Positions 19,713 to 42,512 of a stretch of 64,000 nt of DNA are shown here, one piece after another. The DNA comes from Asterias amurensis. Its lineage: Eukaryota. The position numbers and the translations under genes are program-made. The stretch is from NCBI RefSeq assembly GCF_032118995.1, contig NC_092652.1:27171339-27235338 (forward strand). Reading direction: 5' to 3'. Under the pieces are notes generated by a model. That model was not told the origin of the DNA, did no database searches, and saw only the letters and a list, made by a program, of their open reading frames with translations. Each line of letters opens with the position of its first letter. Position 1 is the first letter of the stretch.

Positions 19713-19997
19713 TTACAATATCGTACAACTTTTCATAGTCTGCTTGCCAGTCTCCTTTGCCGTATTCTTGACAGGCTTCTTCCGTGACGACCAGCGTCTT
19801 CGTGCCGTTGAATGTCTCGGTTTGAACGGAACATTCTTCACCTTGATACGGAAAGTATTCCCCCTGCTCGGGCCGCTGTCTGTCTGGTCCAGCGATGGGT
19901 CACGTAGATGAGAAAGTGCCTCTTGTGGTTGGAGGAACCAAATCATGCTGGCATCACCAACAGCTGAAGCTAGGTCATCATCAGCCGCTGATTTAAG
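19713..19997 (-). CDS. SufS-like gene, putative terminal coding exon (LKSAADDDLASAVGDASMIWFLQPQEALSHLRDPSLDQTDSGPSRGNTFRIKVKNVPFKP…KSCTIL*)
   Basis: The acceptor is atccttgacag|CTT and the frame is open to a TAA at 19713. The second half is K/R-rich. A more protein-like alternative frame (GEYFPYQGEECSVQTETFNGTKTLVVTEEACQEYGKGDWQADYEKLYDIV) opens after an internal 'cag|GGG' at about 19893, so the true 3' end is ambiguous. Confidence 0.3.
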   Translation of the reverse strand, partial: LKSAADDDLASAVGDASMIWFLQPQEALSHLRDPSLDQTDSGPSRGNTFRIKVKNVPFKPRHSTARRRWSSRKKPVKNTAKETGKQTMKSCTIL

Positions 19998-20281
19998 CTG
20001 TCAAGGATGATTTATAAGGTATCAATTAATTATCGAGTCAGATCCACCCGTTGCGTATCAATGATATTGTTGTTGACTTGTTGTTAAATTTACCTAGTCA
20101 CTTCAGTTTAAAACGGTGGTTTGTGTGATTTAAGGCATTGCACGGTGAATTCCAGATTCCAGAAAAAAACTACTCCACGGTAGTAGAACATGAAACAAGA
20201 CAAGTTCTAAAACAAACAAAATACCCAGCAAGTAGGCACACAATTGGTGGATGTTACCGCAAACAAAACATAAATATTTAC

Positions 20282-20338
20282 CTCGTTACATTTGGCCTCC
20301 GCTTCACTGTAAAACACGCTAGCGATCTGTAAAGTCTC
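20282..20338 (-). CDS. SufS-like gene, C-terminal extension exon (ETLQIASVFYSEAEAKCNE)
   Basis: The acceptor is tgtctttttcag|GAG and the donor is AACGAG|gtaaat. It is in phase 0 and spans 19 codons. Confidence 0.4.
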
Positions 20339-21027
20339 CTGAAAAAGACAACATAAAAACAAAAATAGGTTTAACTCCAGAAAATGAATAAGTTCTAGAT
20401 ACAATCATCAATCGTTTGTTGTGATTTGACTTAACATTAACATCGCATTACACAACATTTGTCAGCCTTGTGGCTGATAGGCCTATCCGAATCGACGTCT
20501 ACAGCTACGGCTACGGCTACGGCTGTTGCTAAGGGTGTTGCTAAGGACGTCCTTTACCTCAACACATGATGACGTAGAGATCTAGCTGTAGCCGCCATTT
20601 CGAACACGGCCTTGCTGCCCTGGGTTTGATACTAGTAGTTTATAACAGAATCGTTTCGACAGAATGCCTTTCAAGTTTAGCCTTGCTCAAGGCAGTCGAA
20701 TTATTCACTCCCCGTACGCCCCCGTACGCTTTTCGCATGCGTCGTCGGCCGTGTCGGCCAAAGGCCTCCGCATGCGGATATTTGTACGGAGTGCGGATGA
20801 CTTGTGCACAGTAGTCGTACTCTGGGCGTTGAGCGATGTGACATAGTGTATACGAGTGGGTCACTTTACAGCGGCGACTTTTCGGAGTGAATAATAAGAC
20901 TGCCTTGAGAAAGGCTATTCAAGTTTCAATTAACCATCTTTTTCAGCTCAAACCTTTTGACAAATTTAATCCGCAAGTTATTCTACTTCACTATTTACTA
21001 GTTTACTATTATTAGTATTTATCATAC

Positions 21028-21219
21028 CTGTAATTTCGATGTTTGAACATAGGTCTTCCTTGACACAAATGGACTTGGCGGAGCTCTGAACTTTCCCTTA
21101 ACGAACTCTGTGGTAAGCAAACTGTCTCCAGCGGGCGCTGTTTCATTTAAAACGCCTTGCGGGTCACTTGTTTGTTGACCCGTGTAGTCCCAACTTCCGG
21201 TGAGCATGTCAAACTTATA
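21028..21219 (-). CDS. SufS-like gene, C-terminal extension exon (YKFDMLTGSWDYTGQQTSDPQGVLNETAPAGDSLLTTEFVKGKFRAPPSPFVSRKTYVQTSKLQ)
   Basis: A clean acceptor (tgatttatttccag|TAT) and donor (TTACAG|gtatga). It is a phase-0 open exon of 64 codons. There is no homology to bacterial SufS, so it is a lineage-specific extension supported only by splice signals and the open frame. Confidence 0.4.
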
Positions 21220-21856
21220 CTGGAAATAAATCACAAACCAGTTTAGAACACTTGGTGGAAACACTTGAAGGAACAAGATGAATCAAGAAATTCAAAAAGT
21301 GTTTTTAGCAGACTTCGAGTTCGAGTGTGTGGTTAAGGATGCTTGAACACTCGGCAAACATTGTGTACTGAGGAGAGGATTAAGCTCCGTCAAAAGAAAT
21401 GGGGAAATGTCCCCGATGACGCAGAAAACATTTGGACATAAAACTAGCACTGAATTCACAGAATATATGAGAACATGTCGATTATCAAATTCGGAGGCAA
21501 GTTGCCAGATAAATATTGCCTGTTATCTCTTTAATTGTTAAGCTTTACAATATGCCTTGTTAAAGTAAATCAAACGCTCTTTGAAATTTAGGACCAGTTT
21601 TTACCTTCTAAAACAAGTTGAGAAACTGGTAAACAATAAACCGTTTACCTGTGTAACATTGATGTAACACTCCATTAGGCCTACCGGTGATAACAACCAT
21701 TAACCAGTGGTAATCAACCATTTACCAGTAGTAAACTAATAGTTCTCCAGTGGTGATAATAATCATTTACCCGTGATAACAACCGTTACCAGAAGTTATA
21801 TCAACCGTTTACCAGAAGTAAACTAATAGTTCCCGCTGTTGGTAATAAAGATTTAC

Positions 21857-21968
21857 CTGTGGTAGCATTTTCCAGCCGTTGGTGGCGACATCATCAATGG
21901 CCTCTAAGACAAAGTTAGTCACCTCGTCGGAGAAGAAGAAAGGCAGATTCAATCGAGTGAATCCAGGT
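21857..21968 (-). CDS. SufS-like gene exon (R PGFTRLNLPFFFSDEVTNFVLEAIDDVATNGWKMLPQ)
   Basis: The acceptor is ttcataatag|A and the donor is CCACAG|gtaaat. The phase matches the previous exon: AG + A gives Arg. 'TRLNLPFFFSDEVTNFVLEAIDDV' aligns to the SufS C-terminus '[24 protein letters not shown]'. Confidence 0.6.
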
Positions 21969-23357
21969 CTATTATGAAGCAACAAGAAAACAAACATTTA
22001 AACTCAGCCCTTTTTTGAGAATGTTGCATCACGTGTTAAGGTTAGTGATTGAAACAACTGGGGTTTGCTTCTCATAAACCGGTTACCATTAGGCCTATAA
22101 CCATTTTTCCATAAAGGTTATCCACTTGACTAAGTATACACTCATTTTATGTAAAGTATTAAAGGTACTGGACACTTTTGGTAGTTACTCACAATATAAT
22201 TATCTTAGTCAACCCAACGAGGTTTGGGAAAAAATTATGGACATTGTTTTACTTCATATTAGCACATTATTGCATCGGATGACCGCTTTTACATATATAG
22301 GGTCTGGCTTTCACCATGGCTATTGGTAATCAAGTCTACAGCCAAAGCCACATCGTCAGAGCAGACTGAGTCAGAGATGTTGTTTCTATCATGTATCTAT
22401 TTATAATAAAACTGAGAAAGGAAACTTCCTTCAACACTTTCAAGAACAAACTCAAAAGCCACCTCTTCTCATCAGCTGTTTCTCCTTCTGTTTATTTTGT
22501 TTAATTAGTTACTAGATGTAAGCTTTGTTAGGGTCCCTGCGCCAGGAGTGTCATCTGTGACAGACATGGCGCATTATAAGTTTTCCATATTATTATTATT
22601 ATGATTAATTAAACAATTACTATACCATTCACGCTTAACAGACTTGCAATTTTTATTTGAGTCGGGATTATTAAAAGTAGAAGTCTTACTTCATGATCTC
22701 CAGTGACTTGTGAGCTTTCTTTGACTTCGAATTTTTAGTGGCTCCTTTTTCTTCCCTAAGTAAAGAAACAAAAATCAAACCGTAAGAAAAATTTGCAACA
22801 TAACCGAAAAGGGAAATAGCGTTTGCAAACTACTGACCAACCAAAATGAAAGACTCTGCTAGGGTCGAAACGTCAGGCCGTTAACAATTTGTTTGCGTTT
22901 ATACCACACGTCCTTTTGGTTGGTAAGCAGTTTGCAAACTCTCAACCAAAATTGACTATTGATATTTATGTACGCCCAAATTACCCTTTGTTGTAGTGTA
23001 TATAGCGTGCAATGCAAAATGCGCGGTATATGACGTGACCTACTTCTCTCCAATCGAGTGATTAAGATCTCCGGTGTGTTATTAACTTTGATTAAAAAAA
23101 GGAAATTGGACATCAATCAACCAAATATCCACCCCTACATAACATCTACCCCCTTCATGTGTACAAATGGTCATCATTAAAGTGGAGATGAAGTATAAAA
23201 AGTTTTTAAACTTAAAAGTATTTGGTAATACTATAGGATGCGTACTTGGTTTTGGGTATAGTTAAGTTTTATCATAATACTTGGATGCAAGGCATCCTAC
23301 AGAGACAAAGCACTATTTTACAATAAAATGTTTGAGACACAAAATATCATATTTTAC

Positions 23358-23627
23358 CTTGTCGTATCAACCAGAAAATCAGCGAACTGTGCTGCCATTG
23401 GCTCGTCGATACCAAGCAAATCCTGCGCATACGGTCCTGCGCATGCACATCCACCCCTAGCCTGGATTCCATACAGATCGTTAAGAAGCACAGCTACGAA
23501 GTTATGATGAAGAACCTTACCACTAGGGGTGTGTACAATCAGGAATGAGAAGATGGGAAGTCTTTCAGCCCGAGTGCTACCCAGAAAGATGAGGTTAGGG
23601 TTACGTCTCCATTTCTTAAAGGCGAGC
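23358..23627 (-). CDS. SufS-like gene exon (L LAFKKWRRNPNLIFLGSTRAERLPIFSFLIVHTPSGKVLHHNFVAVLLNDLYGIQARGGCACAGPYAQDLLGIDEPMAAQFADFLVDTT). It carries the active-site cysteine loop.
   Basis: The acceptor is tcttgatccacctctag|G and the donor is ACAAG|gtaaaa. It aligns over its whole length to SufS '[53 protein letters not shown]', with 'ARGGCACAGP' matching 'RTGHHCAMP', the catalytic Cys loop. Confidence 0.75.
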
Positions 23628-23983
23628 CTAGAGGTGGATCAAGAAATAATGAAGATGCAGTTAGTTTCTATGCATTGTTTTCTCTTTTGCTATACTCCGA
23701 TACATCCAAGTTGTTATCTCATCATTACTGATGCACATTTAAATCTTAAGTAATGTTTGAACTTTGCATGGTGTGGCTGAATAACAGTATATTTTCTGAT
23801 AATTTTGCTGCTTCAAGGCCATGTGTAAATCTCCTTTGGGCAGAGTGTTGGCTCTATAAAGAGTCGAGGCCATAAACCATCGGCTCTTTTCCAAGCCAAA
23901 CCTTCTCACAAAGGAAAATACGCGTTTTGGTATCATCCAGGATTGTCCGGGAATGTCCTGTACTTCTCAGTAGGCCTACTTAC

Positions 23984-24030
23984 AATGACAAGTCGTGCTC
24001 CCTTTCCTCGATGAGATCTGGGGTGATGGC
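23984..24030 (-). CDS. SufS-like gene exon (AITPDLIEEREHDLS +2 nt)
   Basis: The acceptor is ttttcag|GCC and the donor is TCATT|gtaagt. The phase (0 in, +2 out) is exactly what the next exon needs. Its length fits the 26-27 residue helix that separates the 'AALEYV' and 'DLTLYG' regions in SufS. Confidence 0.5.
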
Positions 24031-24392
24031 CTGAAAAAGAAATATAACATAAAATGAATTTTGTTTTACGTACGGTGTTTTATCTCTCTCATAAAGAAGT
24101 TTTTGTTGTTGATATGCCCAAGTGTTAAATAAAGTTTTAAGTTTCATAGTATAAATTTTGTAACTTCAGCATAAATTATTATTTTGTAATTTTACAAATA
24201 TTTTTACTGTTATGAGCATGATCTAGAAAGCAAATTATTCATTTTATGGACAATAAACATTTGCCTTTTTGAGGTATGGTGGACACTATAAGAGTGCATG
24301 GTGTGGATCGGGTATACAGACAAATTTAACCAAACCAACTTGTGCAGCAGTGATGTATACGCCATACCTCATTTTTTATATTTATTTAATTG

Positions 24393-24420
24393 ATTGAATT
24401 GAATTGAATTGAATTGAATT
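24393..24420. repeat. (GAATT)n pentanucleotide microsatellite in a SufS-gene intron
   Basis: 'ttgattgaattgaattgaattgaattgaattt'. Confidence 0.85.
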
Positions 24421-24423
24421 TAC

Positions 24424-24534
24424 CGCTTTAAGTTTGAAGACGAGCCCAGCGCGGATTGATTCCACTATGGCCGGAGTACCTCCCTCTTCACGCTCCTCGA
24501 TATTAGAGACGTAACGGTGTGTGTCACGAGTCAC
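24424..24534 (-). CDS. SufS-like gene exon (VTRDTHRYVSNIEEREEGGTPAIVESIRAGLVFKLKA)
   Basis: The acceptor is cttcactgtag|GTG and the donor is AAAGCG|gtaaat. 'EEGGTPAIVESIRAGLVF' aligns to SufS '[22 protein letters not shown]' and SCLY 'RPGTENTPMIAGLGKAAELV'. Confidence 0.65.
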
Positions 24535-25168
24535 CTACAGTGAAGAAAAGTAACAACAAGAATTCTCAAATAATAAACCCGGCTTCTGAAAATCTTTGGA
24601 TTGTACATGATTTATTTATGAGTTAAATGAACAGTTACAGAACGCATTTTTTTTCTTCTTTCGGTTGATCACTGTACTGAAGTGAACATTGTGTATTGAT
24701 ATTGTTGTGTTTTATACTCTCCAAATTACAAGGTATAAAAAAGTAAGAGATGTTTTACAAAATTAACTATTCTACGTCTTCTTCTTCCCTCGTTTGAATA
24801 TAACTAGTTTGATAGTTTAGTGACTTCAAGCCACTTGATGGTATCCTCATCGAAATCTCTGAGTTACTGCTCGCCTTGTGGTGGTCTGAAGTCTGGGCAG
24901 TCTTGAATGATGTGGATGAAGATTGTAGATTGATCATAAAACAGAACTAGTCGATCGGTTTTTTTTTTCAACTAAATCCTTCAAATAAAAGAGGTGTTTA
25001 TTTTGTGGCAAACCTTCATGGAAAAAGTCGTGGGCCTAACCCTGCTGCTACATGATAAACAGATGGACAATTTCAAGGAAATGCAATTTATGTGACTTTA
25101 TGATACTTCCAAACAATGGGAAGCTGTATTACTGTTGTTGCGTGTTTTTTCCTCTCCAAATTACTTAC

Positions 25169-25242
25169 AAAAAGTACAGTTCCACCGCCACATGAACCTG
25201 GCACTGCATTCATGAAAAGTTTCTTCTTTGCAATCAAAAGAC
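25169..25242 (-). CDS. SufS-like gene exon (G LLIAKKKLFMNAVPGSCGGGTVLF)
   Basis: The acceptor is cgtcag|GTC and the donor is CTTTTT|gtaagt. It aligns to SufS '[20 protein letters not shown]', and the GGG motif is conserved. Confidence 0.7.
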
Positions 25243-26526
25243 CTGACGAAAACAAAATGTTATAGAACAAATACCAGGTAATTGATTGAAAATAAAAATC
25301 TGCACACAGATCAGCTTGCACAACAATTGGTTTATATTTAACTCAAAAACTGAATGAACGCAAACAGGGCAGTGTTATCTTTTGTGAACCGAATTTGTTC
25401 CGAATCTCACTTGATCAAGCAGAACTTGTCCGTCTCCTATATAGGACTTTTCCAGTATATAGGTACTGTTACGAAAGTGTAAGGCCGTCAGGGCTATGTT
25501 TGGAATGATAACGATGTGTTTTATTTTACAATTAATCGGAAGATTTATGAAGTTATTTCGGAGAAGTTGATGTTTAGTGCACTGTTTTAAACAGTGAGAA
25601 AATAACTATTTCAGGTTGTTTTAAACTATAAACTCGCTGTAAAATAATACGTCAATATCATGTTACACCACAATTATCAAATTACAGATATCAGATTTTT
25701 GATTTCACGCACTGCTTGTTTTTTTTATGAGGTCATAATGGGAACACATTCAAGCGTTAATGTCTTTATGAGTAGTCTAGACTTATTAAAAGTCACAGCA
25801 TGGTGCCGACAGATTAAGTAAATAAAATATTAAAAAAACCACAAAAAACACAAGATTTAAAGTCTACCAGTAACGAAACTAGGTTATAATAATAGGGGTC
25901 ACAATGGGGTGCACCGGTTTTTTTCAGGAGAGGGCGTGTCACTTCTGGCCAATTAAAACGTTTTCGTTTGAATGTTTGTTTAACAAGCCCATTTTATGTG
26001 CGTTTGTTATGTCAGAATTTTTAAAATTATTATATTGTGGAGAGGATGTAAAAATAACAACATTTCACAGAACCCGGGAGAGTACACATTGCTTACACAC
26101 ATCGGTTTATATTGGTAAAAACCAAAATGAATATCCTTAAAATTTCAAAAGATAGGGTGGGGGGCAGTTGCAGTCACCCTAGGAAAACATTTCTCACATG
26201 TGGTTGCAGATTGGTCATCATCAGTCAAGATGTCAAGTCGTCTTGACTCGACCCCCATGCTAGCCCCCAGCAAATTGACAACTCGACACTCATTAACGGG
26301 TATAGTCCTGTGCCTGGACAGGCTCGAGTGGTGCTGGCTAGACGAAACGCAACACCAACCTTTCAAAGTTCTTATTTTAAGTCATTCGTCTTAAAAACTG
26401 ACTTTATACAAGGTGAAGCTTTGTCATTTGACAGAAAAAATTCTAAATTTAGAAACTCCGTCTGCTGACTAGACTGAAATGGAGTTTAATTTCAAAATAA
26501 AGAAAGATTTGAAAGGAAATAATTAC

Positions 26527-26603
26527 CAGGAGTTCCGACACCACCGACGAACTTATGTGGAGACAAATAGACGGCGTCTTTGCTGAGATCCAAGGCTTCC
26601 ATT
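26527..26603 (-). CDS. SufS-like gene exon (G MEALDLSKDAVYLSPHKFVGGVGTP G). It carries the PLP-binding lysine.
   Basis: The acceptor is ttctag|AAT and the donor is CCTG|gtaatt. 'YLSPHKFVGGVGTPG' aligns to SufS 'YVFSGHKLYGPTGIGIL' and SCLY 'TIVGHKFYGPRIGALY'. The lysine is the Schiff-base residue. Confidence 0.75.
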
Positions 26604-27019
26604 CTAGATGAAGGAAATATTATATACAATATTTATTTAAAATGTGATATTCATTTCATCAAGGTATTTTAAGAACACAATATACTGGATTGTTAATGAT
26701 TGATCGTGTGACATTTGCAGTCATTATGATGTTTCATTGTGGAAGTTTAATAAATTGGGAGCTGCATTTTTCGGAAATAGTTTTGTGCATTCTTAAATGA
26801 AACATGGAATACAAGTTATATTTTTAACAATAAATTAAATATGGACTGTAATTTTGAAGTATTTATTCAAACAACTTATGCATACAAATGAGCATTATCT
26901 TAAAGACCATTCGTACATGGCGACTTTGTCAGGACCGCTATTTTAGAGTACCAACTGGTAAGCGTTTAATCTTCCTACATAGTGATATTGACTCATAGCG
27001 CAACCAAGACTTAATTTTT

Positions 27020-27480
27020 TACAAATATTGACTGCTTCGAGTGCTATGGTAAAACTACGACTCCCGAGGTGATCCCCGGAGCGTTCTATTTTCTCGAGGC
27101 GCAGCCGAGGGAAAATGGAACGGTCCGGGATAACCGAGGGGGTCGGAGTTTTAAACATAGCACGAGTTAAAGCAGTCAATATTTGTTTTATAACACACCC
27201 AACAGACTATTATCATCTTCGTATACACATGTACCGTTCGTACGCGCGTTTCAGATACACAGATGCATAACTGATTGGGTTCGAGGTGGATAAAAGACGT
27301 CTGGGTACTGCATGCCGTGTGATAGTCGTCGGACTACCACACGGCAAACGATGCACTATCACACGGCCGCCGTCTAGTAAAACTAAGACATATCATGTGA
27401 CGCGCTCTAAATCAATGAAAAGGCAGAATATTTGTATGGGGTGTTATAAAGACGGGTAGCACATGACGTTATTGACCACC
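27020..27480 (+). mobile_element. Dispersed element D, copy 2 (hairpin at 27025-27187, with CCAAT/TATA at 27410-27455). It lies inside an intron of the SufS-like gene, antisense to it.
   Basis: It is roughly 85% identical to copy 1 over the hairpin and over 'gacgtctgggta.tgca.gcc.tgtg…aaaactaagacat.tcatgtgacgcgctctaaa.caatga..aggcagaata.ttg.a.ggggtgttataaa'. Confidence 0.6.
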
Positions 27481-27837
27481 ATGACATATTGGAAAGATGC
27501 ACGCGTGTACGCGCTGCGCACGCGTGCACGTTTCATCAAAGATGGCGGTCATCAATGCGAAGGGTCTTTTGAGATGATGGCGTCAGGTGGGTCAAGTGGG
27601 AGTATCATCAAACAATTAGACAAGTTTAATAGCCATAGGTAGTAAAACAAAAGGAAGATTCATACGAGGGCAAAGTCTGGATTCATGGTTTCGGCTATGT
27701 GGCTACGGCCGGATTACTGAAAGGTATTTTATTTAACATTATCAATGCAGGCAAAGGACGTAGTCGTAGCCGTAGCCTCAACATTTCTAAACTTCCAACG
27801 TCATCGTAACTGCGCCCTCTATTGGCCTGAAACTTAC

Positions 27838-27892
27838 CCGCCTTCCCCATCTTCCTCGACTGGTGGGTTCATGTCAATATTGAGGTACGGTC
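27838..27892 (-). CDS. SufS-like gene exon (G PYLNIDMNPPVEEDGEG G)
   Basis: The acceptor is cttgcag|GAC and the donor is GGCGG|gtaagt. The phase is consistent, with 2 nt in and 2 nt out. The position corresponds to SufS 'VMHHPVDVQAL' with a short acidic insertion. Homology is weaker here. Confidence 0.45.
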
Positions 27893-28214
27893 CTGCAAGC
27901 AAATAAAAATAAATGAACATAAAAAATAACCTCAAAAAAATGGGTGAGAAACTTAAACTTATTTAATTAAACCTTACATTTCTACGATCATTACTGAGAC
28001 ATACAAAATTAGCTGTTGCAAATTGCTTACTATGGTATAATGGAATTTGGCCTTACGTTTTGACGCTAGAGTCTTTCTAAAAAATCAATGTCTTTAAACA
28101 AATAAAAATAACTTACTGTTGGTAAACTAATCAACATATCTTAAGGTAGCGGCTAAAAGAAGGTAATAAATTGTTAAAAACTGATTTTTTGTGTGGTAAA
28201 AATTGTTGTTTTAC

Positions 28215-28356
28215 CTGCAGTGGCATAATCCCAGAATGCCAGAGCTCCATATTGATGCAATAGTCCAGAAACTGCTGCTGTATCAGTTACTATCCCAGTC
28301 ACGTTAGACGCAGCTGAAAAACAGCCAATAAGAAACTTGGACTTACGTTGGTATTG
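28215..28356 (-). CDS. SufS-like gene exon (QYQRKSKFLIGCFSAASNVTGIVTDTAAVSGLLHQYGALAFWDYATA G)
   Basis: The acceptor is ctacag|CAA and the donor is CTGCAG|gtaaaa. 'GCFSAASNVTGIVTD…LHQYGA' aligns to SufS '[37 protein letters not shown]'. Confidence 0.7.
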
Positions 28357-28975
28357 CTGTAGGGAAGAGAAAGAAGCGTGCTTATTGGTCGTGTGTGTTA
28401 TTAGAGGCCGAGAACCAAACCAATAACGAACCTTGACTGACGACACTACACTTTTCATTGGTCAGTTACATTAACAACAGCTCCGAAACAACCAATGGGG
28501 CTTCTCGACATACTTATGTATGTCTTAAACCGTGTAAGGAATTTTCATCTGACCGTACTATTAGCTATAGAGAAATAAAATTGAACGTTCAAAATTAAAA
28601 TAAATATATTCACTAGACGATTGTATCATAAAAGAATCTTCGATTTTACAGTAACTTTTTAAATGTATACATATAAAGGATACGAAAGGAAGACGATCAA
28701 GAAAACAGCAAAACAAAAAAGGGAAAAATAAGAACAAGAACGACAACCCATCATGACATCAATCTTGGGCAGTTTCTATATGAAACAGCGATTACTTTCG
28801 ATTGGTACATTTTGACCACGTTAAAATACTCTAAACCGAATAATCCTTCACCGCCCCCACCATTAGACTGAAGACACAGACACCCCTAATAGTATCAGTG
28901 CAAATCGATCTCTAAAGTAATACCGGTTGCAAGTAAGCTGAGATTAGTCCTCGACTCCCAAATTATTGCTCTTAC

Positions 28976-29041
28976 CTTCAACTTTTGTTGTAAAAGATTC
29001 AGATCGATTTGGCCTCGGTCTGCATCCCTTATTCGGATAAC
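28976..29041 (-). CDS. SufS-like gene exon (VIRIRDADRGQIDLNLLQQKLK)
   Basis: The acceptor is ctcag|GTT and the donor is TTGAAG|gtaaga. It aligns to SufS '[27 protein letters not shown]'. Confidence 0.65.
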
Positions 29042-29453
29042 CTGAGAATACAAAGAAAAAGAACACAATAAAAGCTGTGACGATAGGCTACCAACTCTCG
29101 ATCTCGTTTCCAAGTACAATGCATTTGGTTTATCAAGGACTGTCAACAACAGCCATTTTAAAACCCTGTTCCTGAAGCTGAGAAGTCTACCGAAAATCTA
29201 CTCTGCAGCAGTAGAATTTTAAACGAGACAAGTTCTCAAAGGAACATAGTTATTCTCTAGCAAGTAGTCACACATCGTGTTTTTAAAACAAAAAAAATTC
29301 CGTTTTTGAGGCGTACATTTGTCCTTCCAAATAAGACGATTGTTTCTGTCAAAAATGATTGACTTGTAAAGGTGAAGGCATGAAACGTAGTTTTGTTTTA
29401 GAATTTGAGGTGGACGATTCCATCCGAAACATCAAAGCATAACTTGGTTTTAC

Positions 29454-29519
29454 CTTTGCACCACTCTCCTTCCATGGCAAAATGTTAGAATGATGCTCAT
29501 ACGGACCAACAAAAACAAC
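29454..29519 (-). CDS. SufS-like gene exon (VVFVGPYEHHSNILPWKESGAK)
   Basis: The acceptor is cctgcag|GTT and the donor is GCAAAG|gtaaaa. 'YEHHSNILPW' matches the SufS/CsdA signature 'MEHHANIVPW'. Confidence 0.75.
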
Positions 29520-31026: not shown

Positions 31027-31156
31027 CGTTTTCTTAGCTCGATCTCCCTTCAGTTCGAGAGCTGTAATGAGTTTATGTACAGCTCCTGTTGTTCCACTTC
31101 CAGTGAATATAACTACGTCATCATCGGTAGCATTAACACAGCGTTTAATCAGCTCC
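31027..31156 (-). CDS. SufS-like gene exon (ELIKRCVNATDDDVVIFTGSGTTGAVHKLITALELKGDRAKKT)
   Basis: The acceptor is tttcag|GG and the donor is AAAACG|gtaatt. 'DDDVVIFTGSGTTGAVHKL' is the class-V 'E-i-FTsGaTe--N' motif; compare SufS 'EELVFVRGTTEGINLV' and MOCOS 'DYTVIFTAGSTAALKLV'. Confidence 0.7.
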
Positions 31157-32435: not shown

Positions 32436-32552
32436 CTTGCTTCTTTGCGGAACTGCGTTGTCTGTCGAGACATAAGCCCAGTGGTCGTATGGGTGTTTGC
32501 ATACAAAGGGTGGACGTGGTTTGTGATGTAATCTTCAATAAACTTCACTGGC
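32436..32552 (-). CDS. SufS-like gene exon (PVKFIEDYITNHVHPLYANTHTTTGLMSRQTTQFRKEAR)
   Basis: The acceptor is ctttag|G and the donor is GCAAG|gtaccc. It aligns to the SufS N-terminal helix region '[39 protein letters not shown]', with the GNTHT motif. Confidence 0.65.
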
Positions 32553-35500: not shown

Positions 35501-36263
35501 ATGGTTTACTGACAGTGACGTACATGTAGCTGTAGTTACTTCAGCAGAGGGGCGTGGTTAATAATCTAGGAGGGGTAACATTGATGCTCTACTGTAACTG
35601 TTCAACACAATAGAGTTTTAATAATTGGCACACTACTGGTTGACTGCAATGGTGACGCATCTGAAACATAAACCCTAAATTGTTGAAGTTCTAAAAACAT
35701 GTCCGGATGTTTGGTACCATAATATTTCAGTCAAGCGTCAAGCTACACAGTGATGAATTGCACCAAACTATTTAAATTGATGTTTCCGTTTGTAGACACT
35801 TGAGTTTTGTTCCCAATGTTGTTATGGCACATTGAAAAGTATTGCTTCATCCTACACTAAAGTATGGCAATAATTTAAATACAAAATATATACTACTTCT
35901 TCTTTCAACAAGTTTAAAACGACAGAAAGACGCCTTTAGTTCATCCAGGAATCCATCAATGATCTTACGAACACAGTGATTTACAATCATTCAGTTTATA
36001 CTTTAGAAGGACTGTAACAACAACACAGTTCCAGAAATATGAAGAGAAGTTTCTCCCTCTTCAGTCCGGTGGCGAAAAATGCGCCGCGGTGGTCAAAACA
36101 AGTTTACGCCAACCATCTTGATCTGCTGCTGATCTTGATGCAGCTGCCATACGCTGTCCAGTCCAATTCTTTATGTCATTCATCCAAGATGATGCTGGAC
36201 GATCTCTCCTTTTTAAAAAGTTGCAGTTATTATTTAATTTAAGGAGTCCGTAGAGGAACTTAC

Positions 36264-36294
36264 CTTCCTGAGGCGGTGTAATCACAGTAAACCA
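36264..36294 (-). CDS. SufS-like gene, 31-nt micro-exon (V VYCDYTASG R)
   Basis: The acceptor is tatttcag|TGG and the donor is GGAAG|gtaagt. The exon is needed to restore the phase between exon 1 (+1) and exon 3, which requires +2. It encodes the conserved substrate/PLP-site region 'Y-D-y-TASG' that immediately precedes 'PVKFIEDYI'. Confidence 0.55.
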
Positions 36295-39200
36295 CTGAAA
36301 TAGAGACAGAAAAAGACATTTATTTGGTTGTTACATCAGTAGAAACTAAAGTTGATGTAGAAGTCTAAATATTACCAGGAGTTTACCAACGTCATATTCA
36401 TATAGGATATATGACTAAAAGGCATTGGGCAGGCGTAGCTAGGGTGTCTGGTGCCCGTGGTTGAGGTAAGATGACGGTGCACTTTCACCCACTTTGTCTT
36501 TGAAACTCTCAGCAAGTCTTACCAACACCCACCGCTTTCAAATAATCTTTGTTTTTTAATAACTTGAAAAAAGACATTGGTCGGTTTAACCATGTAGGTA
36601 GATGCATGGTTTAACGGCCAATGGGCTCACACGCGTCACATGTCCTCCCCACCCCCATAAGCCACGGTGTATTACAGGACGTGTTCACCCATGTGTTCCT
36701 CTTCATTGCATTTATTCTATCATTTAGGTCTGATAACAGACTGAAGTGTTCCTATATTTTTAGCGAGCTTTCCTAAACACGGAGACTGCGGTCACACCAA
36801 TACGACATTCATTCAAATTACATCATATGAGGAAATTATATTAGAAAGACAAATGAACGCTCATAATTGAATGAACTTAATGAAAATGCTGTCTATTGAC
36901 AAATGTGATAGTTGAAAAGTTGATTTATTTGTCACTTTATTTTTTAATTGTAAACAATATGTTTTTATTCCAACTATAGTGTAACCATGGTCAGGTAGCA
37001 AAAACCCTTTCCCTCTCTTTCATCCCATGATATTCCACTTATTGCTTCAACAGATTGCCATAAAACTCATCTCTCATCGGATATTCAAATATGACCCACT
37101 CAACAATGTCTCTTGACACTATGGAAAATATAGATTTCTGTTCACACCTGCGTAAGTTAAAGTAAATACAGGCGGCATAAGGCCAGCCGAGTCTACGCTC
37201 AATGGGCCATTGCAAAAGTTGGCTTAAAAACCGTCCCCCGCAAACCCCCCGCTAAGTTCACTGCACAAAGGCGCAAAAATTAACCCCCACGATGCAAAAA
37301 ATGTTTGCCTTAGCATGTCCCCCTTTTGAATTTCATCACCTTGCCTTATCTAGGTTAGAATTATTTTCTTTTTTAAATAAATAGATTTTTCTTGTCAGTA
37401 TCACGCGATTAAGTGTGGTCATGCACATCTTACATTTAAAACATCTCTATCCGGGTGTGAACTTCCTTTCACAATACAAATTTTGATTGATCAACAACCA
37501 AACCCCTTTCCCCCGCGTTTTCTGAATGACAGAGGCGCGCCCAAAGATCTGCACTTTCATGATTGCAATCGTGATGTCAACTTATTTTATGAATTGTTAA
37601 CGACAAAGGGTAGGGCCTAGGTCTGCCGTATCTTGTTCAAGGAAGACTTTGTCAATTTGTTTTCCCATGGGATCAATGAGAAGTTATTTTAAAGCGATAA
37701 GACTCTTTATTTGGTAATCACACTTTAAAATCATTGGCAATAAAAGCTTACTTAGAAGTAGGCATAGATCAGTTTTCGATAGAATAAAGCATTTTGATAT
37801 TAATTTCACTTCGAAGTATTAAAATGTGCTTATGGAAACATTTATCAGTTTTTATGCCCCCAAATTTGTGTGTATTCCAATTACAGAGTATTCTTCCTGC
37901 TCCGGATTTTCGACAATTTCTCAAAAACGTTACCAACTTTTGAGATGAAATTTTCTCAGGTTAGTTGTTTTGTGTAATATCTAACATTTTTATAGGATTA
38001 AACAATCGAACGGCCCAAAAACCAAAGGGGTGTGTGTGTCCTTTTAACATAATCCGTCCATGATTTGGAACAATCTCCCTCCTGCGCCATTAGGGAATCT
38101 GATACCCTATCTGCTTTTCGTAAAGTCCTTAAGACTCACCCTTTTCCCACTTAATTTCTTTCTATAGTGCGCTATGAATAGCGCCTTATAAATTTTAATT
38201 GTTATGTTATGTTATAATAATAGCCTCTTTTCAGTCGGATAATAGTTTATCGACACTTTATTTGAGCAGGCAAGGGAAACAAGATGGTACAAAGTATCCC
38301 AACAACATGAAACTTTGTAAAAGATAGTCATCACCACTTTTTTGGACGACACTTTGCTTTCCTCGATAAACTTATAGTGTAAATCAAGTTCAATACACGA
38401 ACGTTCATAGGCCCATGTAGCTAAACTTGACACTTTCGACCACAACTTTTCCTGGTTAACCAGTTTCCTATATTCCTGGGACAAACTTGTACTGTCTTTG
38501 CGTTGGAAAGTGTAGAATAGAACTGACAGTGACAGTGAATTAGAGGTTACAACTTACAACATACCAATCCGGTACGTCATCGTGTGAGGTCAAGGGTCAT
38601 TTGTTCCAAGGCTGTGGGCAAATCTTTACTTATTCTGCATGTACTAACCATTGGACTAAGACATTGGGATTGGAATGTCACTAACTGTGCCCAATTTCAA
38701 GATCATTGCTCTGCTTTCTGTTGGCTTATGAGCTTACTACGGACCAGTGTGCTTTACATGGCACCGTAAGCGCAGAATTTCACGGTAGGCACGGAACCAT
38801 GAAATTGAGCCCTTGAGCTTAAATCCCTCGTTAGTAGGCCAATCACTTCTCGTGTTTGTTTTAGCCTACATACCATATCCTGTGTGATTGTGCTTCCTTG
38901 AAGTTCGACAATGGTAGGACATTTTCAGTTTTAGTTAAAGACCAGCATTTTTTTAACCTATGTAACCCAACATATACATTCCTTACAACAAATAACAAAC
39001 CTGTGGAAGTTGAAGACCAGTTAATGAGTCACCAACAAAATAACAACCTGTGAAAGTTTAAACACAGTTAATGAGTCACCAGAAGTGAAAATTACCTCAA
39101 TGACTCATTGTGTTCAAGAAATAGGGATTATGTTCAACACTGAACTTAGCTGGACTAGTTTTTTTTTTTTTTACTGGTTCTTTGGTGTTCCAACTGACAT

Positions 39201-41829
39201 TATTAGGTCAGCGGGCTATGCAGTGTTTATGGAGAATGTATGATCATAAGATTGGGTTATGTGGGCTAGCTTTACCTCACTTATAATGTCAGTATGTCGT
39301 ACAAGAAACACTTACATGGGACATGGGGTTCCCCTCATGGCTCATATTGCCGTGTTTTGCTTACAGAAGGAAGTTGTTTTTGTTGCCTACTTTCTGGCTA
39401 CGTGCGTTTTCAACAATGTAAAAATAATGTAGACCGTAATAAATGTACATCGTGCCATGGTCCCAGTGACTGGCCGATTGGCTAGATAAGCCTTGGGCTG
39501 CAACCACTGAACCAATACCCGGTAATGTCAGGGCAAAGCAAGATTACGTTCATTCCGGTAGACCGAGGTAGAACCGGCTCTGCAAAGCTAGAGTACATTA
39601 TAAGGTCATATCGGTACAAGGATATCGGTATGGAATTGCACGGCGAGTGCCTAGCTCTATGGTGAGTGTAGGCCTACAATCAATTCCAATGAACTTGACC
39701 GGTCATGTCCCCTTGGTACACGCCAAGTCCACAACCATAATTGTAACTGGTCAAGGGCATGGACGAGGAATGTTATCTTGAATTGATTACCAATACCGAG
39801 TCTTTTACTTAGTTTGTTTCTTTAATTTCCTCAATGCTTAGATCAATGTTGTCTGTAGTGTTAGATCAATGTTGTCTGTAGTGTTGTCCCTTCCTCTTAT
39901 CGCTGCGGTGTTTTGTTGTGGGTATAGTTTTTTGTTTTCAATAGTCTGATTTTGCTTGTGTTTTAATGATTTCTATTCTGTGATTCTTAAATGTTTCAGT
40001 GCAATCACCTTTTTATATTGTATAATTATATTTTTATCGTTGGCAGGGGTCTGGTTTTACACATCTTTTGATGACAGTTTTATACTTTTGTTTTAGCCTT
40101 GACAGCCCCTGTACAACTTGCAACTATTGTGTATGTCTAAAGATTTAAAATAAATAAATAAATAAAATCGAAAGCCTCGTTTACCAGCGGCTTTGTATTG
40201 TTTAATACACACCTGTACTTGGACACCCCTATGTTCCGACTTACTATACGACGCACCTAGTGTATTTTCCTATCCCTAACCATAATCTTACCATCATAAA
40301 CCCTACTACCAAGTAAACTACGATTTTTTTTTCTTCGGAGGGGTGTCGGAACATAATATTATAGGGGTGTCGGAATATCAAACAGTTACCATTATAAGAG
40401 GTCCAACAACTGGATATTAACGAAATGAGTGTTTGGACAAAAATTTCAAAATACTTTTTTTTCTAGTACATCATAGAACTTAGGGTCTGTGAACCTTGAT
40501 GTAATCAACACGTTTGTCGTCTGTGCGGCACCTAAATGTTTAAGTTGACTCGGATACCATTTACTTCCGTTGTTGTAAAAACTAAAAAGGACTCGACCAC
40601 TGGGCTGAGTGGTCAATGTCGTTCCACGTTTATTTAATCTCGGTATAATCTTCTTCGTCAAGAAGTTTCTGCTTTTATATAAGATGTCCGTGAAGATCAA
40701 GCGAGGAGGATGGTGGCGATGAGTATTAATTTTAGGAGTTGTATAATTGGTTTTAAGACTCTCTATATAAAATCAAAAACTCTCGGGAAAAAAAATCACC
40801 ACTAAAAGGTAAAAGCTCGCTTAATTTTAAAGCTCAACAAAAGTATTTAGTCTGAATGCAGAAATTAGGTTTGGAAGAAATATGGATCCATGGAACAAAA
40901 GTTTGGTGAAATCATTGGCCATTAATTAAAAAAACACTGTCAAATTCCCCTATTGAAAGAAACATGCGATGTTTGACCTTTTGTGGTGTTTATTTTTGGT
41001 ATGGTTTGAAATAAAGGAGGCGGAAAGAACAAAACAAACAAACAAACAAACAAACCTACCATCAGTGAAAAACTTACAACTTTTAAAAGTAAAAAAAAAA
41101 TGTATGTTAGGCCTAATTACATTTTTGTCGCACCCTGCAAGCTTGGGAACCAAATTTGTAACTTAAAAAAAACCAATTTGACTAAATGTTTCACTCAAAC
41201 TAAGTTTTCCTTTAAATAAAAAAATAAATAAATAAAGGTGATGCATTTCAAGTTTTATTTACGATTTTTTTTAAATTATTATAACAAAAACTCAGCAAAA
41301 TTAATTTTTTTTCACGCTTTTCCAGACTGGCGCCAAAAATACAATAAGATCCATTCCTGCGGAGACAGTTTTCAAGGTTGGGAAACCGTGCATCATTCCA
41401 TGCCAATACAACTCCATTTTGAATCCAAGAACATCCAGACTACATTTTGCTCCAAATGTGTCTTATGAAAGTGTATATATCCAGCTTGGGCTGTAGGCTG
41501 TTTAGAGTCACGCGTTAAAAACACATTTTCATTAATTTGTAGTGTGCTCCAAAACCAGACACAGACGAGAAATTGTTTTACAAAAGTGTGTTAAGGGCTA
41601 GCAGTTCAGTTTTGACGAACGCAACAAGGGCAGGCAACGAAAAGTTTTACAAGAGCCGTAATTGTATTTTACAAGGTTTGACGCGAATTGAACATAAGCA
41701 ATACAAGTTATACAATTAAGTTACAACATTCTACAAGATAATGCTGGAAAAAAATGTTCCATTTGAGACGAGTGAAAAAACAATCAATCAATAGAACCCT
41801 TTTTATAAAAAATCAACAATAACTAAAAA

Positions 41830-41905
41830 AAGGGGATTCGAACCACCCCATGCTAGCTCTAGAATTGCACAAGTCGTGGGTTCGAGTCCCACATGAGTAA
41901 TGACT
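41830..41905 (+). mobile_element. tRNA-like fragment with a perfect T-arm (GTGGGTTCGAGTCCCAC), probably a SINE head
   Basis: 'ggggattcgaaccaccc…gtcgtgggttcgagtcccacatgag'. Confidence 0.35.
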
Positions 41906-42148
41906 GTGATTGTTTTCCACAGAGGTCGGGAATGTACTGAGTATACAGTGCTGATACACATCGGTGTATATCTTTGTCCCGATACATATTTTTATTTATC
42001 AATAATAAAAACCTATCAACAGAACCTGTTGTTAAACCACGATTGATATTTAAAAAAAACAAAATACAAAAAAAACGAACACATTTTTTAAAATGATATT
42101 AAACAATGAAATTATGAAAGCAATATTTTAATTAGTAAAATAAATTAC

Positions 42149-42512
42149 CTTGCTTCTCTCCGAATGGTCCTGGGAAACAGGTATCTTTACCCACGATGTT
42201 CTCCTCCACGTAGCGTAGGATTTGATGTCGCTCATCCTCCTCATCTTTCTTATCTCCATCTCCAGCGACAGTAACTCCTGATAAGTTAGTGATGGTAATC
42301 ATTGGTCGGTCATCCAGCTCAAAGCGACACTCCTTCGGTGAAACAGGCGGTGAGAAATGAACAGCACCTTGGCTTCCAGGCTCAAGCTCAAACCGGCATT
42401 GCTTGGGAGAAACTGGGGTGACTGGGGAACCACTGTCGTCCGGCTCACTGCTGCATTCCACGGTAGGCACTTCTGGTGTTGCTGAGGCACCCTTGTCAAC
42501 TGTCGTAGCCAT
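42149..42512 (-). CDS. SufS/CsdA-like class-V PLP enzyme gene, first coding exon. It reads MATTVDKG…HQILRYVEENIVGKDTCFPGPFGEKQ, with the ATG at 42510-42512 and the donor CAAG|gtaatt leaving +1 nt.
   Basis: A 121-codon ORF from an ATG, ending at a canonical gtaat donor. The N-terminal 95 aa are S/P/E-rich, with two tandem repeats 'VSPKQCRFELEPG…VSPKECRFELDD'. The final 'F.GPFG' segment leads directly into the conserved 'VVYCDYTASGR' of the next exon. Confidence 0.6.

What the first reader, a model, noticed from the sequence alone, without database searches (positions are those of the whole stretch)
19713..42512. Intron-rich SufS/CsdA-clade class-V PLP enzyme gene in a metazoan genome, with 17 coding exons over 22.8 kb
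Stitching the minus-strand exons gives one uninterrupted reading frame of about 731 aa, with GT/AG at all 16 introns and every exon phase consistent. The core (exons 3-14) is collinear with bacterial SufS/CsdA along its whole length and carries the signature motifs of that clade. Exon 5 has EHHSNILPW, matching SufS MEHHANIVPW. Exon 9 has the PLP lysine in SPHKFVGG. Exon 10 has GGGT. Exon 11 has EEGGTP, matching RFEAGTPN. Exon 13 has ARGGCACAGP, the Cys loop matching RTGHHCAMP. Vertebrates have only NFS1, SCLY and MOCOS in this fold group, so a group-II SufS-type enzyme with bona fide spliceosomal introns in an animal is worth placing phylogenetically. It could be an ancient eukaryotic family lost in vertebrates, or an old horizontal transfer that has since been intronised. 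A key question is whether it is a cysteine desulfurase/selenocysteine lyase or has been neofunctionalised. Both the PLP Lys and the catalytic Cys are retained, which argues for activity.
Basis: partly seen in the sequence, partly recalled or inferred. Interest (0 to 1): 0.6.

Follow-up and report, generated by a model that had tools for sequence, protein, structure and literature searches.

The report
Sea-star SufS-like PLP enzyme gene
This is a real, intact 18-exon sea-star gene, already annotated without a function in Asterias rubens, for a SufS-like and probably lipid-anchored sulfur-mobilising enzyme from an old, unstudied family kept by invertebrates, some protists and bacteria but not seen in vertebrates.

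Summary
The gene is real, on the minus strand from 42512 to 19713. The protein matches Asterias rubens LOC117287960 ('uncharacterized protein') at 747 of 753 residues.

The core is a class-V PLP domain. Its fold, β-hairpin insertion, short Cys loop and catalytic residues are those of type-II cysteine desulfurases (SufS, CsdA, CpNifS). It scores far below the curated SufS and CsdA cut-offs, so it is not a SufS orthologue.

It belongs to a separate, uncharacterised family defined by:
- an invariant (G/S)GCxCAGP loop;
- a folded C-terminal extension of about 125 aa ending in WFxLPxE.

The family occurs in most invertebrate phyla, amphioxus, tunicates, choanoflagellates, zoosporic fungi, a dinoflagellate and many bacteria. 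No vertebrate member was seen. Trichoplax shares 14 of the 17 intron positions exactly, so inheritance is old and vertical, not recent horizontal transfer.

Many paralogues are fused to a TtcA-like tRNA-thiolation domain, which points to sulfur mobilisation. The window's subfamily instead ends in a conserved CaaX box (CTIL), which suggests prenylation. Enzyme activity and prenylation are inferred, not shown.

The parts
42149..42512 (-). Coding exon 1 (aa 1-122). Starts at the ATG at 42512. Encodes a disordered acidic, Ser/Pro-rich N-terminus with a duplicated VSPK[QE]CRFEL motif, then the first helix of the fold.
   Evidence: GT donor, phase 1; 99% identical to A. rubens; pLDDT below 50 for residues 1-80
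36264..36294 (-). Coding exon 2 (31 nt, aa 122-132, VVYCDYTASGR).
   Evidence: a 31-nt exon at the same position in Trichoplax and Lottia
32436..32552 (-). Coding exon 3 (117 nt, aa 132-171).
31027..31156 (-). Coding exon 4 (130 nt, aa 171-214).
29454..29519 (-). Coding exon 5 (66 nt, aa 215-236). Contains YEHHSNILPW; H223 and H224 correspond to SufS H123 and H124.
   Evidence: H223 is invariant in 104 sequences
28976..29041 (-). Coding exon 6 (66 nt, aa 237-258).
28215..28356 (-). Coding exon 7 (142 nt, aa 259-306). Contains SNVTG (N276 = SufS N175) and WDYATA (D301 = SufS D200; T304 replaces SufS Q203).
27838..27892 (-). Coding exon 8 (55 nt, aa 306-324). Encodes a family-specific acidic insertion.
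26527..26603 (-). Coding exon 9 (77 nt, aa 324-350). Contains SPHKFVGG; the PLP Schiff-base lysine K341 is the codon at 26554-26552.
25169..25242 (-). Coding exon 10 (74 nt, aa 350-374). Contains the GGGT motif.
24424..24534 (-). Coding exon 11 (111 nt, aa 375-411). Encodes the type-II β-hairpin insertion and REEGGTP.
23984..24030 (-). Coding exon 12 (47 nt, aa 412-427).
23358..23627 (-). Coding exon 13 (270 nt, aa 427-517). Contains the Cys loop ARGGCACAGPY: R484 = SufS R359; C487 (23449-23447) sits where SufS has H362; C489 (23443-23441) = the SufS catalytic C364.
22690..22755 (-). Coding exon 14 (66 nt, aa 517-539, EEKGATKNSKSKKAHKSLEIMK). It encodes a low-confidence basic loop inserted relative to SufS.
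   Evidence: identical at the DNA level in A. rubens; pLDDT about 64
21857..21968 (-). Coding exon 15 (112 nt, aa 539-576). R544 corresponds to SufS R379, which binds the substrate carboxylate.
21028..21219 (-). Coding exon 16 (192 nt, aa 577-640). Start of the family-specific folded C-terminal extension (YKFDxxTGxW...).
20282..20338 (-). Coding exon 17 (57 nt, aa 641-659). Encodes a helix of the C-terminal extension.
19713..19997 (-). Coding exon 18 (aa 660-753 plus stop). Contains the WFLQPQEA family motif (W679), a disordered polybasic tail and the CaaX box C750-T-I-L753 (19727-19716), then TAA at 19715-19713.

Best explanation
Shown: the region is the sea-star orthologue of Asterias rubens LOC117287960. 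It is an 18-exon gene under purifying selection that encodes a 753-aa class-V PLP enzyme with the fold and active-site layout of type-II (SufS/CsdA-type) cysteine desulfurases. It belongs to a distinct, uncharacterised family that is old in eukaryotes and also found in bacteria. The family is marked by a (G/S)GCxCAGP loop and a folded C-terminal extension ending in WFxLPxE.

Inferred mechanism:
- K341 holds PLP.
- L-cysteine (or selenocysteine) forms the external aldimine, with its carboxylate held by R544.
- C489 on the short loop attacks the substrate sulfur, giving alanine and an enzyme persulfide.
- The invariant neighbouring cysteine C487 acts as a relay or resolving thiol, and the sulfane sulfur passes to a partner or is released with a thiol reductant.

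In sister paralogues the partner is a fused TtcA-like tRNA thiolase. In this subfamily the C-terminal polybasic stretch plus CaaX box (CTIL) most likely brings geranylgeranylation and anchoring to the cytoplasmic face of a membrane, so the sulfur is mobilised locally for an acceptor that is still unknown.
For: Gene model: all 17 introns are GT..AG with consistent phases, and 747 of 753 residues match the RefSeq protein.

Selection: the CDS differs from A. rubens at 1.5% of bases (26 synonymous and 6 non-synonymous codons), against about 6.4% in aligned non-coding DNA.

Fold and nearest relatives:
- Aminotran_5 scores E 7e-39.
- All 43 PDB sequence hits except 3cai ('possible aminotransferase') are deposited as SufS, CsdA, plastid Nfs2, selenocysteine lyase/CsdB or simply 'cysteine desulfurase'; none carries an IscS, NFS1 or SCLY name.
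- The AlphaFold2 model has pLDDT 83 and pTM 0.84.
- All top 50 Foldseek PDB matches are SufS/CsdB-type, plastid Nfs2 or encapsulin-cargo desulfurases, with TM-score 0.83-0.89 over the target.

Active site against E. coli SufS: H223/H224, N276, D301, H340, K341, R484, C489 and R544 align with H123/H124, N175, D200, H225, K226, R359, C364 and R379. The β-hairpin insertion and the short Cys loop are of type-II form.

Conservation: K341, C487, C489, R484 and R544 are invariant in 104 metazoan and bacterial sequences, and the CxC loop is found across the family.

Domain fusions:
- A PP-loop domain is fused in 34 of 143 representatives, and it scores 208 bits on the TtcA model.
- Other fusions are to thioredoxin, GST, hemerythrin and cNMP-binding domains.

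CaaX: a cysteine sits at position -4 in every member of the echinoderm clade and of the cnidarian plus Priapulus clade, each preceded by a basic tail.
Against: No member of the family has been studied biochemically, so desulfurase activity, the role of C487 and prenylation are all inferences. The protein scores far below the curated SufS and CsdA cut-offs. Two SufS residues are changed: the HH before the catalytic Cys becomes C-A, and Q203 becomes T304. Type-II enzymes normally need a dedicated acceptor (SufE, SufU or CsdE), and none is identified here. Bacterial gene neighbourhoods gave no partner. The window's protein lacks the TtcA domain, so the fusion evidence applies to it only through paralogy. 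I had no transcript data.
Confidence: 0.6

Rival explanations
1. Same chemistry, different substrate. The enzyme is mainly a selenocysteine lyase or a cysteine-sulfinate desulfinase, as E. coli CsdB/SufS and CsdA were first described, and serves selenium recycling rather than sulfur mobilisation.
For: The nearest structures include entries deposited as 'selenocysteine lyase' (1jf9, 6ndn) and 'cysteine sulfinate desulfinase' (4lw2). The active site cannot tell S from Se by sequence. A CxC pair could handle selenide.
Against: Frequent fusion to a TtcA-like thiolase, whose product is a thio-nucleoside, points to sulfur. The bacterial SclA model scores only 36 bits against a cut-off of 525. No entry deposited as a eukaryotic SCLY is among the PDB hits at E <= 1e-3.
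Confidence: 0.15
2. It is a C-S β-lyase rather than a desulfurase. It could be the missing metazoan 'OvoB' that cleaves the 5-histidylcysteine sulfoxide conjugate in ovothiol biosynthesis, or another thiol-conjugate lyase.
For: No OvoB-like protein has been found in animals other than hydrozoans (PMC8433421). Ovothiol is abundant in echinoderm eggs. From my own knowledge, the ergothioneine lyases EgtE and Egt2 are class-V PLP enzymes. The family, like OvoA, is widespread in marine invertebrates and not seen in vertebrates.
Against: The persulfide-forming cysteine is invariant, and a lyase does not need it. The family is closest to SufS, and no Egt2 or EgtE structure appears among the PDB hits. 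It is present in ticks, insects and many bacteria and is fused to TtcA, which does not track the OvoA distribution described. There are several paralogues per genome.
Confidence: 0.08
3. It is a bacterial SufS-type gene acquired by horizontal transfer into an animal lineage and later intronised.
For: Bacterial homologues are unusually similar, at 45-51% identity over the core, and have the same C-terminal extension.
Against: Fourteen of 17 intron positions and phases are identical in Trichoplax, and the other three have the same phase within gapped alignment. Lottia shares at least seven. The echinoderm clade follows the species tree, and the bacteria form their own clade with 86% bootstrap. 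The family is also in choanoflagellates, zoosporic fungi and a dinoflagellate. Any transfer would have to predate animals.
Confidence: 0.03
4. It is a catalytically dead scaffold or a pseudogene.
Against: The ORF is intact across 18 exons, substitutions against A. rubens are mostly synonymous (26 versus 6 codons), and every catalytic residue is invariant.
Confidence: 0.03

Closest known systems
Type-II cysteine desulfurases: SufS/CsdB, CsdA, plastid CpNifS/NFS2 and encapsulin-cargo desulfurase
   Same: Same fold (Foldseek TM-score 0.83-0.89 over the target). Same PLP lysine, HH motif, Asp at the pyridine nitrogen, both Arg residues, catalytic Cys on a short loop, and β-hairpin insertion. These are the best HMM matches.
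   Different: Only 20-25% identical, and 131 bits against the 475-bit SufS cut-off. The loop reads GGCACAG instead of TGHHCA, giving a second invariant Cys. Q203 is replaced by Thr. There are two insertions (aa 314-331 and 505-540), a folded C-terminal extension of about 125 aa, a disordered N-terminus and a CaaX tail. No SufE, SufU or CsdE partner is known.
Paralogous PLP + TtcA-like fusion proteins of invertebrates, choanoflagellates and dinoflagellates (for example Trichoplax sp. H2 'TtcA', 956 aa)
   Same: Same family: CxC loop, WFxLPxE extension, 45-55% identity, and 14 of 17 intron positions shared.
   Different: They carry a C-terminal PP-loop domain that scores 208 bits on the tRNA 2-thiocytidine(32) synthetase model. 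The window's protein has no such domain and ends in a polybasic CaaX tail instead.
[quoted passage not shown]
   Same: 45-51% identity over the core, the same CxC loop, and the same C-terminal extension ending in LRWFxLPxE.
   Different: No introns, no N-terminal disordered region and no CaaX. Some are fused to cNMP-binding, GST and hemerythrin domains. They are equally uncharacterised.
Type-I desulfurases NFS1/IscS/NifS, and SCLY
   Same: Class-V PLP fold and persulfide chemistry.
   Different: IscS lacks the β-hairpin insertion and has a longer Cys loop. HMM scores are only 20-36 bits, and no entry with one of these names is among the PDB hits at E <= 1e-3.

Membership tests
Pfam Aminotran_5 (PF00266), class-V PLP fold | HMM score above the gathering threshold | tested here: met
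   134 bits against a cut-off of 21.5, covering aa 123-495
Type-II (group II) cysteine desulfurase | PLP-binding lysine in an S-x-H-K motif, plus an Asp contacting the pyridine nitrogen and the HH motif | tested here: met
   S338-P-H340-K341, D301 and H223/H224 align with SufS S223-G-H225-K226, D200 and H123/H124. They are invariant or nearly invariant (H224 at 90% or more) in 104 sequences.
Type-II (group II) cysteine desulfurase | Catalytic Cys on a short loop, and the β-hairpin insertion that type I lacks | tested here: met
   C489 aligns with SufS C364. The loop is 5-6 residues shorter than in IscS, and the 12-residue insertion before REEGGTP is present.
Type-II (group II) cysteine desulfurase | Loop consensus RxGHHCA | tested here: not met
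   The loop reads R-G-G-C-A-C-A. The HH is replaced by C-A, and (G/S)GCxCAGP is found across the family.
Type-II (group II) cysteine desulfurase | Cysteine desulfurase activity, with persulfide transfer to a dedicated acceptor (SufE, SufU or CsdE) | not testable with these tools
   This needs enzymology. No acceptor was identified, and bacterial neighbourhoods were uninformative.
SufS (NCBIfam TIGR01979 / NF006791) and CsdA (NF008126 / TIGR03392) | Score at or above the curated cut-off | tested here: not met
   131 against 475, 70 against 661, 72 against 607 and 70 against 494 bits. In the NJ tree SufS and CsdA group together (98% bootstrap), outside the family.
Type-I desulfurase IscS/NFS1/NifS | HMM membership and a long Cys loop without the hairpin insertion | tested here: not met
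   IscS model 20 against 643 bits and NifS 36 against 531 bits. The loop and insertion are of type II. No entry named IscS or NFS1 appears among PDB hits at E <= 1e-3.
Selenocysteine lyase (SCLY / SclA) | Sequence membership | tested here: not met
   The SclA model scores 36 bits against 525. No entry deposited as a eukaryotic SCLY is among the PDB hits. Substrate preference itself cannot be tested here.
MOCOS / ABA3 | NifS-like domain followed by C-terminal MOSC domains | tested here: not met
   Pfam finds only Aminotran_5 (and Aminotran_1_2) on residues 1-618, and finds no family in the C-terminal 177 aa.
PLP-desulfurase + TtcA fusion subfamily | C-terminal PP-loop (SGGKDS) TtcA-like domain | tested here: not met
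   tblastn with the Trichoplax fusion protein finds nothing in the window beyond its aa 498. The product has no SGGxDS motif.
CaaX-prenylated proteins | Cys at position -4 from the C-terminus with a suitable aaX, conserved in orthologues, often with an upstream polybasic stretch | tested here: met
   The product ends ...RRRWSSRKKPVKNTAKETGKQTMKSCTIL. A Cys sits at -4 in all echinoderm, anthozoan and Priapulus members of the two CaaX clades: CTVL, CSIM, CVIL, CSIL, CIIL, CCIL, CIVM, CVVM, CSVS, CAVS, CTIS, CSVQ, CAMQ, CCIQ, CPLM. Actual lipidation was not tested.
OvoB / EgtE-type C-S lyases | Sequence relatedness to characterised lyases | tested here: not met
   EtOvoB is modelled on class I/II C-S lyase and aminotransferase templates. 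No Egt2 or EgtE chain appears among the PDB hits. Activity on thiohistidine conjugates was not tested.

The most novel reading that the evidence does not exclude
The CaaX subfamily may be a prenylated, membrane-tethered (perhaps ciliary) cysteine desulfurase with a built-in CxC persulfide relay. It would generate sulfane sulfur or H2S locally as a signal or for a membrane-proximal acceptor, as part of an old sulfur-mobilising system that is regulated in other lineages (cNMP-binding, thioredoxin and GST fusions) and that vertebrates have lost. An unverified lead fits this: 'aminotransferase class V-1' (SPU_011586, 62.6 kDa, 24 peptide counts) was found in sea-urchin embryonic cilia (PMC3812683). 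Among fungi, only zoosporic (flagellated) lineages were seen to carry the family.
Probability: 0.15. Interest if true: 0.7.

Novelty: new variant of a known kind. Interest (0 to 1): 0.4.

Why it matters
If the inference holds, non-vertebrate animals have a second, cytosolic sulfur-mobilising system in addition to mitochondrial NFS1. It comes in at least three forms: TtcA-fused, CaaX-tailed, and one with an acidic ESGY tail. That would bear on how thio-modified tRNAs, persulfides or H2S are made outside mitochondria, and on what vertebrates lost.

The TtcA fusions predict tRNA 2-thiocytidine synthesis in animals, which can be tested. The CaaX form would be, as far as my literature searches reached, the first lipid-anchored cysteine desulfurase.

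For genome annotation the practical points are small. The gene has 18 exons, and 'SufS-like' or 'chloroplastic cysteine desulfurase' labels on its orthologues overstate what is known.

Tried and rejected
- Bacterial gene neighbourhoods of three homologues (Dactylosporangium, Nocardioides, a deltaproteobacterial MAG) share no partner gene.
- The spliced window protein could not be submitted for structure prediction, so I modelled the 99.2%-identical A. rubens protein instead.
- The afdb50 fold library was not available, so I could not survey taxa through AFDB.
- The Nematostella locus (P0136) was not on record, so I used Trichoplax and Lottia for the intron comparison.
- A first Biopython bootstrap run timed out; I replaced it with a numpy distance calculation and NJ.
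- Literature searches for TtcA-desulfurase fusions, SufS-like genes in sea urchins, SPU_011586 and prenylated desulfurases found no study of this family.
- The cilia-proteome lead (SPU_011586) could not be mapped to this family.
- Rfam and tRNA scans of the window found nothing.
- Pfam finds no domain in the C-terminal 177 aa.
- My interim note 'no chordates' was wrong. Amphioxus and a tunicate have the family.

Full report
**1. The observation**

I aligned Nematostella, Lottia and bacterial homologues to the window with tblastn, then the Asterias rubens orthologue. I fixed the splice sites by hand.

The result is 18 coding exons, 17 GT..AG introns with consistent phases, a 2,262-nt CDS and a 753-aa product. 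The ATG is at 42512 and the TAA stop at 19715-19713.

Because its length is a multiple of 3, skipping it keeps the reading frame.

The product matches RefSeq 'uncharacterized protein LOC117287960 [Asterias rubens]' at 747 of 753 residues.

**2. Source organism and selection**

The window is colinear with the A. rubens reference locus. It has the same neighbours: an MFS_1_like transporter gene downstream in convergent orientation, and a cyclin gene upstream. DNA identity is about 93.6% over 37 kb. The window therefore comes from an Asterias-like sea star, but probably not from that reference assembly.

The CDS differs from A. rubens at only 34 of 2,262 bases. That is 26 synonymous and 6 non-synonymous codons, against about 6.4% divergence in aligned non-coding DNA. 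This indicates purifying selection. The missed exon 14 is identical between the two.

**3. What the protein is**

- Pfam: Aminotran_5, E 7e-39, aa 123-495.
- NCBIfam: the best match is the SufS subfamily model, at 131 bits against a cut-off of 475. Next come the encapsulin-cargo desulfurase, CsdA and SufS equivalogs, all far below their cut-offs. The NifS, IscS and SclA models score only 20-36 bits.
- PDB by sequence: 43 hits at E <= 1e-3. Apart from 3cai ('possible aminotransferase'), they are deposited as SufS, CsdA, plastid Nfs2, selenocysteine lyase/CsdB or simply 'cysteine desulfurase'. The best is S. aureus SufS at E 7e-25. No hit is named IscS, NFS1, SCLY or Egt2.
- Structure: an AlphaFold2 model of the A. 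rubens orthologue, built on a 104-sequence alignment, is confident (pLDDT 83, pTM 0.84). Residues 1-80 are disordered and confidence is low over most of the last 50 or so residues, while aa 577-700 mostly fold. All top 50 Foldseek PDB matches are SufS/CsdB-type, plastid Nfs2 or encapsulin-cargo cysteine desulfurases, at TM-score 0.83-0.89 over the target and 19-23% identity.

An alignment with E. coli SufS, CsdA and IscS, taken from the K-12 genome, gives this residue map:

| Window protein | E. coli SufS | Note |
|---|---|---|
| H223 / H224 | H123 / H124 | retained |
| N276 | N175 | retained |
| D301 | D200 | retained |
| T304 | Q203 | changed |
| H340 / K341 | H225 / K226 | K341 is the PLP lysine |
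| R484 | R359 | retained |
| C487 | H362 | changed to a cysteine |
| C489 | C364 | catalytic cysteine |
| R544 | R379 | binds the substrate carboxylate |

The type-II β-hairpin insertion and the short Cys loop are both present; IscS has neither feature.

Membership of SufS or CsdA proper is not supported.

**4. A distinct family**

Across 104 metazoan and bacterial sequences, H223, N276, D301, K341, R484, C487, C489, R544 and others are invariant. The loop motif (G/S)GCxCAGP recurs throughout 250 or so sequences.

A C-terminal extension is shared by all metazoan subfamilies and by full-length bacterial homologues. It runs ...GW(K/R)LLPxYxFDxxTGxW ... LRWFxLPxE.

Bacterial members are 45-51% identical to the sea-star protein over the core. 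That is as close as distant metazoan paralogues are to each other.

A search of 1.84 billion cluster representatives gave 1,317 representatives at E <= 1e-30.

**5. Distribution and inheritance**

Named hits cover these groups:
- Deuterostomes: echinoderms (three or more paralogues per genome), hemichordates, amphioxus, and a tunicate (Styela).
- Non-bilaterians: cnidarians, sponges, Trichoplax.
- Protostomes and others: molluscs, annelids, brachiopods, bryozoans, priapulids, chelicerates, crustaceans, insects (Cimex, Temnothorax, Diorhabda), rotifers, an acanthocephalan, an acoel.
- Non-animal eukaryotes: the choanoflagellate Choanoeca; zoosporic fungi (Allomyces, Blastocladiella, Catenaria, Podochytrium); the dinoflagellate Biecheleria.

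No vertebrate and no Dikarya appeared. That is not an exhaustive test.

I built an NJ tree from 79 taxa, 450 columns and 100 bootstraps, rooted on IscS:
- SufS and CsdA group together (98%), outside the family.
- The bacteria form a clade (86%).
- The window gene lies in an echinoderm clade (92%). Its sea-star, sea-urchin and crinoid groups are each recovered with strong support, but the order among the echinoderm classes is only weakly resolved.
- The window gene groups with Patiria and Acanthaster at 100%.

With only two type-II reference sequences, the tree cannot show whether the family branches inside or beside type-II diversity.

For intron positions, I recovered the exon structure of the Trichoplax sp. 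H2 fused paralogue by exact spliced alignment (28 exons). It shares 14 of the 17 sea-star introns in both column and phase. The other three have the same phase within gapped alignment regions. Exon lengths 31, 117, 66, 66, 142, 77, 74, 111, 47 and 112 nt are identical. Lottia shares at least seven positions.

The intron-rich structure therefore predates the split between placozoans and bilaterians. A recent horizontal transfer is excluded. The data fit an old eukaryotic gene lost in vertebrates and in several other lineages.

**6. Functional clues**

- *TtcA fusions.* In 34 of 143 representatives, and in many metazoans, the PLP domain is followed by a PP-loop domain. This domain scores 208 bits on the tRNA 2-thiocytidine(32) synthetase TtcA model (cut-off 272, near full length) and contains CSFCSR and CPAC cysteine motifs. 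A fusion of this kind argues that the PLP domain supplies sulfur.
- *Other fusions.* One form adds thioredoxin after the PP-loop domain (the dinoflagellate). Others place two cNMP-binding domains, sometimes with GST_C and hemerythrin, in front of the PLP domain. These suggest thiol-redox recycling and regulation.
- *The window's subfamily.* It has no PP-loop domain. It ends in a disordered polybasic tail and CTIL. A cysteine at position -4 is present in every member of the echinoderm clade and of the anthozoan plus Priapulus clade (CTVL, CSIM, CVIL, CSIL, CTIS, CSVQ, CAMQ, CPLM and others). It is absent from every other listed representative apart from P0126, which represents the echinoderm CaaX clade itself. 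CaaL predicts geranylgeranylation; that part rests on established CaaX rules and was not tested here.
- *A second ambulacrarian paralogue clade.* It ends in an acidic ...ESGYS... tail instead.
- *Localisation.* The N-terminus is acidic and disordered and does not look like a mitochondrial presequence. This is my inference.

**7. Mechanism**

Steps 1 and 2 follow from residue conservation and the SufS literature. Steps 3 and 4 are my hypotheses.

1. PLP sits on K341, and L-cysteine forms the external aldimine.
2. C489 attacks the substrate sulfur, giving alanine and a C489 persulfide.
3. C487, two residues away on the same loop, relays or resolves the persulfide. Thioredoxin-type or GSH-type reductants could regenerate the enzyme.
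4. The prenyl anchor confines this chemistry to a membrane surface.

The rivals are selenocysteine lyase or sulfinate desulfinase specificity, a C-S lyase role such as the unidentified metazoan OvoB (PMC8433421), an old horizontal transfer, and a dead enzyme. They are weighed in the rivals section of this report.

**8. Literature**

I found no study of this family.

One lead remains unverified. [quoted passage not shown] I could not map that identifier to this family.

**9. Verdict**

The gene itself is already in public annotation without a function. What is new at the level of kind is a variant of the type-II desulfurase with a CxC loop, its own C-terminal domain and, in this clade, a CaaX tail. 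Interest is moderate.

Noticed in passing
window 10209-11783 (+): A 524-aa uninterrupted ORF matches Pfam MFS_1_like (E 6e-64). It corresponds to the 638-aa MFS gene that lies downstream of, and convergent with, the orthologous gene in A. rubens.
   Followed up: partly
window 51620-53090: An (AAT)n microsatellite about 1.5 kb long, with GC near 0.16. It reads as poly-Asn or poly-Leu ORFs of about 500 aa, which are artefacts.
   Followed up: partly
window 267-625, 7843-8203, 19129-19485, 58740-59100, 61351-61712: Copies of an interspersed repeat of about 360 bp, 80-89% identical to copies in the A. rubens locus, with ORF remnants such as 'KLCAFRCL..RPQVLNLRSRNQI'. One copy lies just downstream of the gene's stop codon.
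   Followed up: no
window about 24390 (intron 11), against L008 28228-74706: In intron 11 the A. rubens reference carries about 46.5 kb that the window lacks, so the gene spans 72 kb there and 22.8 kb here. This could be an insertion, a deletion or an assembly artefact; I did not resolve which.
   Followed up: no
window 42413-42381 and 42341-42309 (exon 1, aa 34-44 and 58-68): The disordered N-terminus has a duplicated motif, VSPK[QE]CRFEL[ED]. Patiria and Acanthaster have a single copy (SPKQCRFSLL). Its function is unknown.
   Followed up: no
window 44701-44943 and 47613-48025: Two tandem-repeat tracts: one with a 27-nt unit (reads VIKHWTTLL) and one with a 12-nt unit (reads KQTN or FVCL).
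   Followed up: no
window 62596-62298 (-) and 63341-63027 (-): Reverse-transcriptase-like ORF fragments (...YSKLDLRQAYLH...), probably a retroelement remnant. Further upstream is an ORF that may be an exon of the cyclin gene annotated upstream of the orthologue in A. rubens. Neither was verified.
   Followed up: no
related proteins P0281, P0268, P0333 (not in the window): Family members occur fused to two cNMP-binding domains, to GST_C plus hemerythrin plus cNMP-binding domains, and to PP-loop plus thioredoxin. This hints at regulated, redox-coupled sulfur chemistry in microbes and protists.
   Followed up: partly
Allomyces macrogynus AMAG_12201, 12202, 12203 and 12183: Allomyces carries several members with consecutive locus tags on one contig, which suggests a tandem array. 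Among fungi, only zoosporic lineages appeared in the hit list.
   Followed up: no
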